Shown piece by piece: positions 1-3,167 of a DNA stretch of 62,338 nucleotides. Position numbers and translations under genes: made by a program. The notes under the pieces are model-generated. The model had not been told where the DNA came from and made no database searches. It was given only the letters and a program-made list of their open reading frames with translations. This DNA is from an uncultured Desulfobacterales bacterium (GTDB lineage: Bacteria > Desulfobacterota > DSM-4660 > Desulfatiglandales > JALVZP01), in contig CAYMUI010000056.1 of assembly GCA_964393645.1 (NCBI GenBank), forward strand, positions 1-62,338. Direction: 5' to 3'. The stretch's first letter is position 1, and each line of letters opens with the position of its first letter.

Positions 1-383
1 CGGACATTTAACATGCGGTCATAAGGATGCCAAATAGGTTCGGTTTGATCATCAATAACTTCCAGTCGAATCCGCCTTTTCCATCCTGTTGTTCCAAAAA
101 TTTTGCACGCATCACATATACCAACTTCATCAAGTGCCGTCCACCAATCCTTTCCTTTCTTTCGAGCTTCTTTAAAGCTCTCAAATTTTTTTCCGCTTAA
201 TTCACACTTTTCACCACTTGGCCCTTCACATGCCCATCCTCCCAGAGCTCTTACAATTGCCTCATACCACCAGCGTAAACTCCCGATTATTCCCGTTTCA
301 CGAATACGATCCATGGTGCCGTCAATACTACCTGTCCATAAAGGCGTAAGAGTCTTCACCCGAATTAATAATTCCCTCACCAT
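1..383 (-). CDS. cmr1: Type III-B CRISPR RAMP protein Cmr1 (5' part only, runs off the left edge)
   Basis: Not in the ORF track. Manual translation from ATG at 383 (RBS AAGGAGG upstream): MVRELLIRVKTLTPLWTGSIDGTMDRIRETGIIGSLRWWYEAIVRALGGWAC...ICDACKIFGTTGWKRRIRLEV. The TLTPLWTG...ETGIIGSLRWWYE...FGxTGW pattern is typical of Cmr1 N-termini. Open to base 1. Confidence 0.85.
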   Translation of the reverse strand, partial: MVRELLIRVKTLTPLWTGSIDGTMDRIRETGIIGSLRWWYEAIVRALGGWACEGPSGEKCELSGKKFESFKEARKKGKDWWTALDEVGICDACKIFGTTGWKRRIRLEVIDDQTEPIWHPYDRMLNV

Positions 384-633
384 CTTCCTCCTTAATATTT
401 ATCCCTTAGTTTTTCATGATTTCTCACATTCTAAAGTTGTTGACAATCAAAATTCAAAAATTGATAAAAACTTATTTTTTAGGTGAAAGTTTAGTTAAAA
501 TTTTTTGCAAAAACAAGACAATTTCTTTTGGTAGAAGAACAGCCTTTGCTTGGCACTTGGCACTTTTTATTGACTTTTCTTGCATATTTTTCTAAAAATA
601 AACACTCCCAACTTAGGATGAGGAGAATGCAAG

Positions 634-1062
634 ATGAAGACATTTATGGCTAAAAAAGATGAAGTAGAAAGAAAGTGGTATGTGGTAGATGCCACTGACA
701 AGGTATTGGGAAGAATGGCTTCTCAAATTGCCAAAAAACTTCGTGGCAAAGATAAACCTGTTTTTACTCCTCATGTAGATACAGGAGATTTTGTCATTGT
801 AGTAAATGCAGAAAAAGTGAAACTTACGGGGAAAAAGTGGGAGAAAAAAATATATTATCATCACAGTGGCTACATGGGAGGTATAAAGCAGATAACCGCA
901 AAAGAGCTGCTCAGAAAAAAACCTGAAGAACTGATAAGACATGCAGTAAAAGGGATGCTTCCAAAAAATAGGCTTGGTAGAAAGCTTTTAAAAAAGTTAA
1001 AAATTTATGTAGGACCAAATCATCCTCACGAAGCTCAAAAACCTGAAAAATGGGAGATTTAA
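634..1062 (+). CDS. rplM: 50S ribosomal protein L13
   Basis: [56 protein letters not shown]. Confidence 0.99.
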
Positions 1063-1064
1063 AC

Positions 1065-1457
1065 ATGGCTGAAAGAATATTCTATGCAACTGGAAGAAGA
1101 AAAAGGGCAGTTGCAAGGGTTTGGATAAAAAAGGGAAGAGGGAAAATAACGGTAAATGATAAACCTATGGAAGAATATTTTTTAGAAGAGGCTCATAGAA
1201 TTCACGCTTTAGAACCTCTGGATATATGTCATATGACGAATAAGGTAGATGTGAAAGCTACTGTAAAAGGAGGCGGACTTTCTGGACAGGCTGGTGCTTT
1301 AAGACACGGTATAAGCAGAGCTCTCGTGCTTATGAATTCTGAATTTAGACCTATACTAAAAAAAGCTGGTATGCTTACAAGAGATCCGAGAGAAAAAGAG
1401 AGGAAAAAGTACGGACAGAGAGGAGCAAGAGCGAAATTCCAGTACTCAAAGAGATAA
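1065..1457 (+). CDS. rpsI: 30S ribosomal protein S9
   Basis: ATGRRKRAVARV, GGGLSGQAGALRHGI, LTRDPREKERKKYG, C-terminal QYSKR; start moved to the ATG 2 nt after the rplM stop. Confidence 0.99.
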   Translation: MAERIFYATGRRKRAVARVWIKKGRGKITVNDKPMEEYFLEEAHRIHALEPLDICHMTNKVDVKATVKGGGLSGQAGALRHGISRALVLMNSEFRPILKKAGMLTRDPREKERKKYGQRGARAKFQYSKR

Positions 1458-3167
1458 AAAATCGCACACTCCACATCTTTTACATCCGGGCAAACCGGTG
1501 CATATGTCTGACTCTTCGGAGAAAAGAGCTCTGTTATATTCAGAAAATAGGTATTTTTTGCTTATACCAGAGCTTATAAAATCCCACGGTAGTATTTCGG
1601 AAATGTCCTTTTGTCTGTATACAAAAAAGTCTGGATTTACATCCGAAAACTTGAATGCTTTCTTCCAGTTTCCGTTAAATTTGTGAACAAGCAAAAGTAT
1701 ATTAGCCACTCTCCTATCACCCAATGAAAGCAAAGTTTGAACATATGCCCACTTGGGAACATCAAAGCTGATCCTTATTCCTCCTTCTTTTCCTATCTTC
1801 TTTGACAGCCATTTTTGTTTCTTCTTTAGTTCGTCCACTTCTTCCATACCTGTCCACTGAAATGGAGTAAAAGGTTTTGGCACAAAGCAACTTACATTTA
1901 CTCTTATATTTATCACTCTGCCTTTTGCTGCTCCTTGCTTTACCGCATGATGTTTTATAAGTTTGATAAGTCTCAATATTTGTTCCACATCTTCCCATTC
2001 CTCCGTTGGAAGGCCTATGATAAAGTAAAGTTTAAGAGAAAGTTCTGCCTGTGCAATCAACTGAACTGCTTCTATTATTTTTTCTTCACTTAAATGTTTG
2101 TTTACTACTTTTCTAAGTCTTTCAGATCCAGCCTCTGGGGCTATAGTGACCTGTCTCTGACCCGCCTTTTTCATGTACTGTAAAAACTGAGGATCAATAG
2201 CATCTGCTCTTATGGAAGAGATAGAAAATTTTCCTTTTTTTTCACAAACAAAAGATAAAACCTTGTCTATAGAAGGCACATCAGCTATAGATGTGCCCAG
2301 CAATCCAACATATCCGGTTTTATCCAGTGCCTTCTGAACGGTTTCAATAAGAACCTCGGTATCATGATATCTGGGAGGCCTGTATATGTAACCAGCAGCA
2401 CAAAACCTGCACGATCTTCCACACCCTCTTGCTACTTCAATCAAGATTCGTTCAGAAAATTCGGTTTCTTCAGAAATAATCTTTGAATGCGCCACATCAT
2501 CCAAAGGAACCTTCTTTGCAATCAAAACCTTTTCGCTTATTCCAGCTTGAGTAGGAGAAAAAGAAGAAATGGTGCCGTCTTTGTTGTATTCTACCTTGTA
2601 AAAAGAAGGCACATAAACGCTTGGCTCATTGGTTGCTATAAAAAAGAGAAGATCTTTTTTATTTGAAAATCTTTTATAAGAGTCTAAAAGAAGATCTATT
2701 ACATTGTTTAGGCTCTGTTCAGCCTCACCTAACAAAAAAAGGTCAAAAAACAGAGATAAAGGCTCAGGATTTAGAAAGGTTGCCACTCCACCTGCCATTA
2801 CTAATGGATATAAACTCTGCCTTTCTTCTGCCAGCAAAGGCACTCCACCAAGCTCAAGTATTTTTAAGACATTTGGGTAGTCGTTTTCAAACGAGATAGA
2901 AAAGGCTATCAGATCAAAACTACTTAAACGGGATTGAGATTCAACAGAGCGCAACTGTTCATTTTCAGACGGAAGAAAAAATCTTTCTGCAACCACCTCA
3001 TCTCTTTTATTGAGTAAATCGTATACAACCTGAAAACCCAGGTTAGACATTCCAACATGATATAGGTTGGGATAAACAAGCGCTACTGAAAATCTTCCTC
3101 TTTTTTTCTTTTGTAAAACTCCTTTTTCTTTTCTCTTGAAGATCCTCCTGTAAGAGCCTTTTTCCAT
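1446..3167 (-). CDS. Radical SAM protein with N-terminal B12-binding-like region (uncharacterised YgiQ/TIGR03960-like family)
   Basis: YPNLYHVGMSNLGFQ N-terminus, RGCGRSCRFCAAG (CX3CX2C), TIAPEAGSERLR, FVPKPFTPFQW, LPWDFI; starts immediately after the ftsZ stop. Confidence 0.85.
   Translation of the reverse strand: MEKGSYRRIFKRKEKGVLQKKKRGRFSVALVYPNLYHVGMSNLGFQVVYDLLNKRDEVVAERFFLPSENEQLRSVESQSRLSSFDLIAFSISFENDYPNVLKILELGGVPLLAEERQSLYPLVMAGGVATFLNPEPLSLFFDLFLLGEAEQSLNNVIDLLLDSYKRFSNKKDLLFFIATNEPSVYVPSFYKVEYNKDGTISSFSPTQAGISEKVLIAKKVPLDDVAHSKIISEETEFSERILIEVARGCGRSCRFCAAGYIYRPPRYHDTEVLIETVQKALDKTGYVGLLGTSIADVPSIDKVLSFVCEKKGKFSISSIRADAIDPQFLQYMKKAGQRQVTIAPEAGSERLRKVVNKHLSEEKIIEAVQLIAQAELSLKLYFIIGLPTEEWEDVEQILRLIKLIKHHAVKQGAAKGRVINIRVNVSCFVPKPFTPFQWTGMEEVDELKKKQKWLSKKIGKEGGIRISFDVPKWAYVQTLLSLGDRRVANILLLVHKFNGNWKKAFKFSDVNPDFFVYRQKDISEILPWDFISSGISKKYLFSEYNRALFSEESDICTGLPGCKRCGVCDFLSL

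What the first reader, a model, noticed from the sequence alone, without database searches (positions are those of the whole stretch)
1..633. Hidden cmr1: a type III-B CRISPR-Cas operon starts back-to-back with rplM-rpsI
The ORF track shows only an antisense ORF here. Minus-strand translation from ATG 383 gives a Cmr1 N-terminus with a strong RBS, containing Cys residues (C..G..G..C and CDAC) that could bind metal. Only 250 bp separate it from the L13/S9 operon, so a cas effector operon shares a divergent intergenic region with a ribosomal protein operon. The rest of the locus, including any ancillary effectors, lies left of the window.
Basis: partly seen in the sequence, partly recalled or inferred. 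Interest (0 to 1): 0.6.

Follow-up and report, generated by a model that had tools for sequence, protein, structure and literature searches.

The report
Cmr1 gene start cut by contig end
The first 127 codons of a genuine CRISPR type III cmr1 gene sit back-to-back with the ribosomal rplM-rpsI operon, but the contig ends inside the gene, the rest of the operon is missing from the assembly, and every close relative belongs to subtype III-C rather than III-B, so this is an ordinary cas gene fragment.

Summary
Minus-strand ORF 383→3 (127 aa, running off base 1) is a Cmr1 N-terminus: TIGR01894 69.8 bits (cut-off 28.65), RAMP PF03787 62.5 bits. It has an AAGGAGG ribosome-binding site, and 250 bp separate it from rplM (L13) and rpsI (S9).

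Window base 1 is also contig base 1. The other ~250 codons of cmr1 and any cas10 or cmr gene are absent from the 96-contig assembly, so the operon cannot be typed directly.

The "type III-B" label is probably wrong. In 34 of 36 related loci with enough flank, and in Thermodesulfatator indicus (73% identical), the order is cmr1–(extras)–cmr6–Cas10c/Csx11–cmr4–cmr5–cmr3. That is subtype III-C. None of 30 full-length Cas10c proteins has a GGDD-like cyclase motif, so CARF/SAVED signalling is unlikely.

The four Cys are a conserved tetrad across 120 homologues: C52 119, C60 as 105 Cys and 15 His, C90 119, C93 120. A structural zinc site is likely.

None of 60 relatives carries this cmr1. Their rplM upstream neighbours differ, and homology stops just left of the rplM −35 box. 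Contigs from independent vent metagenomes support the junction, so it is not a chimera.

Low interest: a new member of a known kind.

The parts
1..383 (-). 5' part of cmr1: codons 1-127 in frame 383→3. This is roughly the first two thirds of the N-terminal RAMP domain, and the reading frame continues beyond the contig end.
   Evidence: R37-W38-W39-Y40, F96 and G97 are invariant in 120 homologues.
105..230 (-). Codons 52-93: the Cys/Cys(His)/Cys/Cys tetrad (C52, C60, C90, C93) flanking a ~30-aa helical insert. This is a probable structural Zn site.
   Evidence: Conservation is 119/120 C; 105 C and 15 H; 119/120 C; 120/120 C. The AlphaFold model is most confident here, with pLDDT 89-94 for residues 61-90. 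Metal binding is inferred.
387..393 (-). Shine-Dalgarno sequence AAGGAGG for cmr1.
   Evidence: Read directly. It lies 3 nt from ATG 383 and 6 nt from GTG 380.
428..457 (-). Sigma-70-like promoter candidate for cmr1: TTGAAT, 18-nt spacer, TAGAAT.
   Evidence: It matches 9 of 12 positions, and the number of such sites is no higher than in shuffled sequence, so this is only a candidate.
384..565 (.). AT-rich spacer (28.6% GC) unique to this genome. The synteny breakpoint with relatives lies at its right edge.
   Evidence: Alignment A2, GC content, synteny.
566..633 (+). Conserved rplM promoter and leader: -35 TTGACT at 570-575, -10-like AAAAAT ending at 599, then the rplM RBS.
   Evidence: This block is conserved in all four relatives aligned (two of the same genus, two of the same family).
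634..1062 (+). rplM (ribosomal protein L13).
   Evidence: TIGR01066, 217.6 bits.
1065..1457 (+). rpsI (ribosomal protein S9).
   Evidence: NF001099, 184.2 bits.

Best explanation
Window 383→1 is the intact 5' third of a cmr1 gene. It is the first gene of a horizontally acquired type III CRISPR-Cas effector operon that reads leftwards out of the contig, most likely of subtype III-C (cmr1, optional inserted genes, cmr6, Cas10c/Csx11, cmr4, cmr5, cmr3). By analogy with studied Cmr complexes, Cmr1 is the Cas7-group RAMP subunit that sits at the crRNA 3' end and helps capture target RNA through the aromatic motif of its first helix (here R37-W38-W39-Y40). A Cys3-Cys/His tetrad probably holds a structural zinc ion. 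The complex would use crRNAs from the genome's arrays, which lie at the ends of contigs C68 and C91. The repeat ends in ATTGAAAC, the usual 8-nt crRNA tag, and a Cas6 would process the transcripts. Cmr4 would cut the target RNA. Cas10c has no cyclase motif, so the system would act through the HD nuclease that most of the related Cas10c proteins retain rather than through cyclic-oligoadenylate signalling. Shown here: the identity of Cmr1, its start and RBS, the conserved tetrad, the real junction with rplM, and the III-C context of all informative relatives. Inferred: the subtype and composition of this genome's own operon, zinc binding, and all activities. The position next to rplM reflects a variable synteny breakpoint, not shared regulation.
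For: Cmr1 HMM scores are far above their cut-offs, and 778 longer homologues were found. Context of relatives: L007 (67% identical) has cas6, cmr1, Cmr6 (PADLOC 274 bits), Cas10c 'CAS-III-C' (659 bits; TIGR02682 Csx11 432 bits), Cmr4, Cmr5 'CAS-III-C' and Cmr3. T. indicus (73% identical) has the same order. Of 36 loci with at least 7 kb from the cmr1 start to the locus end, 34 have a Cas10c-like large subunit in that order. None of 30 full-length Cas10c proteins has a G[GS]D[DE] motif, and about 23 of 30 have an N-terminal LHD motif. This agrees with PMC11229360 and PMC12669027, which report that III-C cyclase sites are inactive, that about half keep HD, and that no effectors are known. By contrast, solved Cmr1 chains match only weakly: A. 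fulgidus 4l6u at E 0.26. The gene looks alive: all invariant residues are kept, and variants in other metagenomes are 8 synonymous to 6 mostly conservative replacements. The junction is real: a 3800-nt contig in run X1 spans 302-1100, and X2, X3 and X4 cover overlapping pieces. X1 and X2 contigs continue 91 and 115 nt beyond base 1. The genome has other CRISPR parts broken at contig ends: arrays on C68 and C91, a cas6b start at the C34 end and PrimPol-cas1-cas2-cas2 on C1. Role of Cmr1: PMC5737701, PMC4215187.
Against: Nothing beyond codon 127 is available for this organism. There is no cas10, cmr3-6 or remaining cmr1 in the assembly, although it is rated 96% complete. The protein collection holds no longer near-identical copy either. 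The subtype therefore rests entirely on relatives that are at most 73% identical. Two of 36 related loci (L017, L067) are disrupted, with a type IIG restriction-modification gene where Cas10c should be. One cas6 in this genome (C69) is broken, so cas genes do decay in this lineage. The PADLOC and NCBIfam Cmr1 models do not separate III-B from III-C. The cmr1 promoter is only a consensus match no better than chance.
Confidence: 0.75

Rival explanations
1. One reading: this is a canonical type III-B (Cmr) operon: cmr1-cmr2/cas10-cmr3-cmr4-cmr5-cmr6, with an active cyclase and cOA-dependent ancillary effectors to the left.
For: TIGR01894 is named 'type III-B ... Cmr1' and scores 69.8 bits. The PADLOC Cmr1 models cover both III-B and III-C. 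The flank is unseen, so III-B is not formally excluded.
Against: No relative with visible context has this order. Of 36, 34 have Cas10c/Csx11 after cmr6, and the other two are disrupted. T. indicus, the most similar sequence, is III-C. None of 30 associated Cas10 proteins has a GGDD-like motif. A solved Cmr1 chain (A. fulgidus 4l6u) matches only at E 0.26.
Confidence: 0.08
2. This is an orphan or decaying cmr1 remnant. The effector operon has been lost or disrupted, and only the 5' part, or a solitary cmr1, persists next to rplM.
For: No other effector gene is found in an assembly rated 96% complete. The cas6 on C69 is broken. L017 and L067 show that truncated loci exist in this family.
Against: All 127 codons are open and every invariant residue is kept. 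The RBS is intact. There are 8 synonymous to 6 replacement variants across metagenomes. Contigs in two runs continue beyond base 1. cas6 and both arrays also run off contig ends, which points to a general failure to assemble or bin the cas regions.
Confidence: 0.12
3. This is an assembly or binning artefact: the cmr1 piece belongs to another organism and was joined wrongly to the rplM contig.
For: The contig ends within a zone of small alternative contigs at 252-331 in run X1. None of 60 relatives has the gene.
Against: A 3800-nt X1 contig spans 302-1100. X2 covers 1-417, X4 covers 302-452 and X3 covers 481-940, from different studies. GC and GC3 of the fragment (43.6%, 0.34) are close to neighbouring genes.
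Confidence: 0.03

Closest known systems
Cmr1 of subtype III-C loci, e.g. Thermodesulfatator indicus DSM 15286 (P0010; locus L099) and an Aminicenantes MAG (L007)
   Same: The N-terminal RAMP domain is 67-73% identical. It shares the T-P-L-W-T-G, G-S-L-R-W-W-Y-E and C-x-x-C-K-I/V-F-G-T-T-G-W motifs, the same Cys tetrad, and the position as first effector gene.
   Different: Only 127 of ~360-390 residues are available. In T. indicus, L007, L009 and L013 a cas6 lies directly upstream of cmr1, whereas here the upstream neighbour is rplM on the other strand. The downstream genes are unknown.
Cmr1 of type III-B complexes (S. islandicus Cmr1α, PMC5737701; P. furiosus, PMC4215187; A. fulgidus PDB 4l6u)
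   Same: It belongs to the same TIGR01894/RAMP family. It has a first-helix aromatic pair (W58/F59 in S. islandicus, W38/W39 here) that was implicated in target RNA capture and crRNA binding.
   Different: Sequence similarity is very low: 4l6u matches at E 0.26. The equivalence of the aromatic residues is inferred, not aligned. The partner Cas10 in relatives is Cas10c without a cyclase motif, and the gene order differs.
Cas7 domains of the type III-E Cas7-11/gRAMP
   Same: The C-x-x-C-x-F-G-T-T motif aligns locally (E 0.06-0.9; NF041225 at E 0.0017).
   Different: The similarity is a short motif only and is not significant in PDB searches. Cas7-11 is a single ~1600-aa fusion protein. That its Cas7 domains bind zinc is recalled from memory and was not verified here (one search found no mention in the one paper opened).

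Membership tests
Cmr1 (TIGR01894) / RAMP superfamily (PF03787) | Profile HMM score above the curated cut-off | tested here: met
   TIGR01894 69.8 bits against 28.65; PF03787 62.5 against 22.1; PADLOC Cmr1 70.1 bits.
Cmr1 (TIGR01894) / RAMP superfamily (PF03787) | Conserved first-helix basic/aromatic motif used for crRNA and target RNA binding | tested here: met
   R37, W38, W39 and Y40 are invariant in 120 homologues, and the model places them in helix 32-46. Correspondence to S. islandicus W58/F59 (PMC5737701) is inferred.
Cmr1 (TIGR01894) / RAMP superfamily (PF03787) | Full two-domain protein of ~350-390 aa, including the G-rich loop | not testable with these tools
   The contig ends at codon 127, and the remainder is absent from the assembly and the protein collections.
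Cmr1 (TIGR01894) / RAMP superfamily (PF03787) | Encoded beside cas10 and the other cmr genes | tested here: inconclusive
   No other RAMP, Csx11 or L007-like cmr gene is found in the 96 contigs, but the gene runs off the contig, so adjacency cannot be seen.
CRISPR-Cas subtype III-C | Cas10c/Csx11 large subunit lacking the cyclase GGDD motif | not testable with these tools
   It is absent from this assembly. In relatives it is present in 34 of 36 loci, with Cas10c at 659 bits in L007, and 0 of 30 have a GGDD-like motif.
CRISPR-Cas subtype III-C | Gene order cmr1-cmr6-cas10-cmr4-cmr5-cmr3 | not testable with these tools
   Only cmr1 is visible here. The order is seen in L007, T. indicus and all other informative relatives.
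CRISPR-Cas subtype III-B | Cmr2-type Cas10 with an active cyclase directly downstream of cmr1, usually with CARF-family ancillary genes | not testable with these tools
   The flank is missing. None of the 36 informative relatives shows this arrangement.
Zinc-binding RAMP insert | Four conserved Cys/His ligands | tested here: met
   C52 119/120; position 60 is C in 105 and H in 15; C90 119/120; C93 120/120. Actual metal binding cannot be tested here.

The most novel reading that the evidence does not exclude
The unseen operon may be a III-C system of the kind found in about half of the relatives. In those, an AriA/AbiLi-like AAA ATPase and an uncharacterised ~268-aa partner are nested between cmr1 and cmr6. 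This pair, rather than cyclic-oligoadenylate signalling, could be the accessory effector of these cyclase-dead systems. The zinc-bearing insert of Cmr1 might be its docking point.
Probability: 0.1. Interest if true: 0.5.

Novelty: new member of a known kind. Interest (0 to 1): 0.15.

Why it matters
For this window it matters little. It corrects an annotation gap: a real cas gene is hidden because it runs off the contig. It also corrects the likely subtype from III-B to III-C. The case shows how cas loci drop out of metagenome-assembled genomes. Here cmr1, a cas6 and two arrays all stop at contig ends, so the genome's immune repertoire is under-reported. More broadly, III-C systems have little experimental characterisation. 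The conserved Cys3-Cys/His tetrad in their Cmr1, and the ATPase module nested in many III-C loci, are testable leads. Thermodesulfatator indicus is a cultured strain that carries a close homologue.

Tried and rejected
- **The look-up of encoding contigs:** A sister contig of 62,829 bp recorded for the same rplM and radical-SAM proteins therefore could not be fetched.
- **Rest of cmr1 or an overlapping contig in the assembly:** tblastn with seven full-length homologues, and end-overlap and blastn checks, found nothing.
- **Longer near-identical Cmr1 fragment:** a 'near'-length protein search found none; the best hit was 64% identical.
- **Tandem Repeats Finder for arrays:** it found none. A k-mer spacing scan did find them.
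- **AlphaFold on the 127-aa fragment:** it gave only pLDDT 68.8 because the domain is truncated. Foldseek against PDB gave no match at E ≤ 0.001. The weak top rows, small RNA polymerase subunits at E ~2-3, are not evidence.
- **Rfam on 1-1500:** only a sub-threshold CRISPR-DR54 match at 494-532 (20.6 bits against 39, E 0.43). It is unlike the genome's own repeat, which has no copy in the window within 3 mismatches. I take it as chance.
- **Expression:** no RNA holder was listed among the sequencing runs, so nothing can be said about it.
- **Literature on zinc in Cmr1 or Cas7-11:** the search gave no usable text.
- **The search of earlier findings:** it returned nothing for this genome.
- **One cas island joining the C34 end (cas6) to the C56 start (cmr1):** I considered this. 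Synteny shows the ancestral neighbour of rplM is C34:43327-44477, 27 kb inside C34. A rearrangement has therefore occurred, but the link cannot be shown.

Full report
**What is there.** Window base 1 is also base 1 of contig C56, in a 1.82-Mb, 96-contig assembly rated 96.2% complete. On the minus strand an ORF starts at ATG 383 and is still open at base 3: 127 codons that run off the contig. It appears only when open-ended ORFs are listed. Otherwise the antisense ORF 103..486 (+) is what shows, and that ORF matches no family.

The 127-aa product scores as follows:
- TIGR01894 (Cmr1): 69.8 bits against a curated cut-off of 28.65, covering profile positions 2-83 of 167.
- PF03787 (RAMP): 62.5 bits against 22.1.
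- PADLOC Cmr1 models: 60-70 bits.

A search for longer proteins found 778 homologues. The best are 65-73% identical over the whole fragment and 356-390 aa long, so the window holds about one third of the gene.

Upstream on the minus strand lies AAGGAGG (393→387), 3 nt before ATG 383 and 6 nt before the in-frame GTG 380. The alignment with homologues fits either start. The intergenic region 384-633 is exactly 250 bp. The genes to the right are rplM (TIGR01066, 217.6 bits) and rpsI (NF001099, 184 bits).

**The Cys motif.** C52 and C60 (C-x7-C) and C90 and C93 (C-D-A-C) flank a ~30-residue insert. Across the 120 best homologues the conservation is:
- C52: Cys in 119.
- Position 60: Cys in 105 and His in 15, and nothing else.
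- C90: Cys in 119.
- C93: Cys in all 120.

A Cys/His swap at one of four otherwise invariant positions is the usual signature of a tetrahedral zinc site. The AlphaFold model of the fragment is poor overall (pLDDT 68.8) because the domain is cut. It is confident exactly here, with pLDDT 89-94 for residues 61-90, which it predicts as short helices. Zinc binding remains an inference.

R37-W38-W39-Y40 are also invariant and lie in the first helix. In S. islandicus Cmr1α, mutating the aromatic pair of the first helix impaired target RNA capture, and a quadruple mutation there abolished crRNA binding (PMC5737701). The correspondence between those residues and these is inferred.

**Is the rest of the operon there?** No. 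I ran these searches on the whole assembly:
- tblastn with seven full-length homologues finds only codons 1-127.
- A whole-genome search with the RAMP family finds no other significant RAMP.
- The Csx11 family finds nothing.
- The Cmr6, Cas10c, Cmr4, Cmr5 and Cmr3 proteins of the closest complete locus find nothing.
- No contig overlaps the C56 start.
- No longer near-identical fragment exists in the protein collection.

The genome does hold other CRISPR parts, and they too are broken at contig ends:
- Two arrays at the ends of C68 and C91 share a 30-nt repeat whose reverse complement ends in ATTGAAAC, the usual 8-nt crRNA tag. The repeat nearest the contig interior is degenerate, so the leaders face the missing DNA.
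- A cas6b start runs off the end of C34.
- A broken cas6 lies on C69.
- A 4.3-kb contig, C1, carries a CRISPR-associated primase-polymerase, cas1 and two cas2 genes.

The cas regions of this genome were evidently not assembled or binned.

**Is the junction real?** Yes. Logan contigs of four public runs from four studies, two of them labelled hydrothermal vent metagenomes, were laid on 1-1100:
- X1: a 3800-nt contig spans 302-1100, which covers the cmr1 start, the spacer and rplM.
- X2: covers 1-417.
- X4: covers 302-452.
- X3: covers 481-940.
- X1 and X2 contigs continue 91 and 115 nt beyond window base 1.

X1 may be the source sample. X1 shows a cluster of small alternative contigs at 252-331. 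This indicates strain variation, and it probably explains why the assembly stops here.

The 14 variants seen inside the ORF comprise 8 synonymous changes and 6 replacements: R3K, R28H, E58K, K71E, E72K and T82M. R28H restores the family consensus. That pattern fits a gene under purifying selection, although the evidence is weak.

The closest locus with flanks is L007, an Aminicenantes MAG at 67% identity. It encodes, in order:
- cas6;
- cmr1;
- a Cmr6 (PADLOC 274 bits);
- a 1033-aa large subunit that scores 432 bits on TIGR02682 (Csx11) and 659 bits on the PADLOC model 'Cas10c, CAS-III-C';
- Cmr4;
- a Cmr5 matching 'CAS-III-C' small-subunit models;
- Cmr3.

Thermodesulfatator indicus has the most similar N-domain (73%) and the order cas6-cmr1-cmr6-AbiEii-like-cas10c-cmr4-cmr5-cmr3.

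I then looked at the 80 best loci from species-representative genomes, which are 45-70% identical over the fragment. Of the 36 with at least 7 kb from the cmr1 start to the locus end, 34 have a Cas10c-like protein after a cmr6-like gene, followed by cmr4, cmr5 and cmr3 wherever the sequence extends that far. The two exceptions, L017 and L067, carry a type IIG restriction-modification-like gene where Cas10c should be, and they lack cmr4, cmr5 and cmr3. They are disrupted loci. No locus shows the III-B order.

None of 30 full-length Cas10c proteins has a G[GS]D[DE] motif. About 23 have an N-terminal LHD motif. This matches published surveys: cyclase sites are absent from III-C, about half keep an HD nuclease, and no ancillary effectors are known (PMC11229360; PMC12669027).

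By contrast, the solved A. fulgidus Cmr1 (4l6u) matches the fragment only at E 0.26. The name 'type III-B ... Cmr1' attached to TIGR01894 is therefore not diagnostic, and PADLOC labels its Cmr1 models 'III-B, III-C'.

For this genome the subtype remains an inference from relatives. I put it at roughly 0.75-0.8 for III-C, 0.08 for III-B and about 0.12 for a remnant.

**The rplM neighbourhood.** None of 60 relatives (same genus, family and order) has this cmr1. The relatives' rplM upstream neighbours differ:
- G003 and G004 (two other genera of the same family): rplM is back-to-back with orthologues of G000 C34:43327-44477.
- G002 (same genus): a yqeY-like gene and the start of mutS2.
- G001 (same genus): a 466-aa protein that lies upstream of rplM on the same strand.

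The alignment shows a block conserved in all five genomes, from a few bases left of the -35 TTGACT (window 570-575) through the -10-like element ending at 599 to the rplM start. Left of about 565 there is no similarity.

The 250-bp region therefore has two parts. One is a ~70-bp conserved rplM promoter and leader. The other is ~180 bp of AT-rich DNA (28.6% GC) unique to this genome. That unique part holds a consensus-level promoter candidate for cmr1 (457→428), which is no better than chance.

The region upstream of rplM is a synteny breakpoint in this lineage, and cmr1 arrived there by acquisition or rearrangement. There is no sign of shared regulation. The GC (43.6%) and GC3 (0.34) of the fragment are close to those of its neighbours.

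**Mechanism, with shown and inferred steps.**
- Shown: a Cmr1 N-domain with an intact start, RBS, RNA-binding motif and ligand tetrad.
- Shown: a real junction with rplM.
- Shown: relatives that are uniformly III-C.
- Inferred from the family: Cmr1 joins a Cmr-type complex at the crRNA 3' end and promotes target RNA capture (PMC5737701, PMC4215187).
- Inferred: crRNAs come from the C68 and C91 arrays by Cas6 cleavage, and Cmr4 cuts the target RNA.
- Inferred: Cas10c does not signal with cyclic oligoadenylates and acts, if at all, through its HD domain.

**Verdict.** This is a correct and careful observation of an ordinary thing: a cas gene fragment at a contig edge. The subtype call and the hope of finding ancillary CARF or SAVED genes are probably wrong, and the locus itself cannot be examined with the data held. 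Interest is low.

Noticed in passing
G000 contig C1 (L100:64-3780): A 4.3-kb contig carries tRNA-Asn, a CRISPR-associated primase-polymerase (NF040561, 314 bits; PADLOC PrimPol 308 bits), cas1 and two adjacent cas2 genes. This is a CAPP-type adaptation module separated from any array or effector by contig breaks.
   Followed up: partly
G000 contigs C68:14550-14798 and C91:15192-15440 (L087, L088): Two CRISPR arrays run off contig ends. They share the 30-nt repeat GTTTCAATTCCTCATAGGTAGGCTAAAAGC, whose reverse complement ends in ATTGAAAC. The innermost repeat on C68 is degenerate, so the leaders face the unassembled DNA. Next to the C91 array are two large ORFs (638 and 705 aa) with no NCBIfam hit.
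   Followed up: partly
G000 C34:70099-70425 (L085:12100-12426) and C69:10438-11333 (L086): A cas6b start (109 aa, PADLOC Cas6b 101 bits) runs off the end of C34. A second cas6, on C69, is broken: it gives two HSPs in different frames, with the part matching residues 172-217 of the L007 Cas6 missing. Small toxin-antitoxin-like ORFs follow it.
   Followed up: partly
Related loci, e.g. L016:11100-13179, L019:11121-13200, L015:10398-12439: In 39 of 80 related III-C loci an AriA/AbiLi-like AAA_15/AAA_21 ATPase (~450 aa) follows cmr1 directly. In 19 of these it comes with a ~268-aa partner that has no Pfam, NCBIfam or PADLOC hit. MNT/HEPN and AbiEii-like genes are also nested between cmr6 and cas10c. 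These could be accessory modules of cyclase-dead III-C systems.
   Followed up: partly
L017:14069-16090 and L067:16877-18324: Two related loci have cmr1, the ATPase, its partner and cmr6, but a type IIG restriction-modification-like gene sits where Cas10c should be, and there is no cmr4, cmr5 or cmr3. These are disrupted III-C loci.
   Followed up: partly
window 566-633, compared with G000 C34:43327-44477: In two other genera of the family, rplM is back-to-back with orthologues of genes that in this genome lie 27 kb inside contig C34. The three genomes of this genus each have a different rplM upstream neighbour. The rplM promoter edge is a recurrent rearrangement breakpoint.
   Followed up: partly
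window 494-532 (+): A sub-threshold Rfam match to CRISPR-DR54 (20.6 bits against a gathering score of 39, E 0.43). It is a single copy and unlike the genome's own repeat, so it is probably chance.
   Followed up: yes
window 1446-3167 (-): A TIGR03960-like B12-binding radical SAM protein (444 bits, just under the 462 cut-off) converges on rpsI. It is conserved in synteny in all four relatives examined.
   Followed up: no
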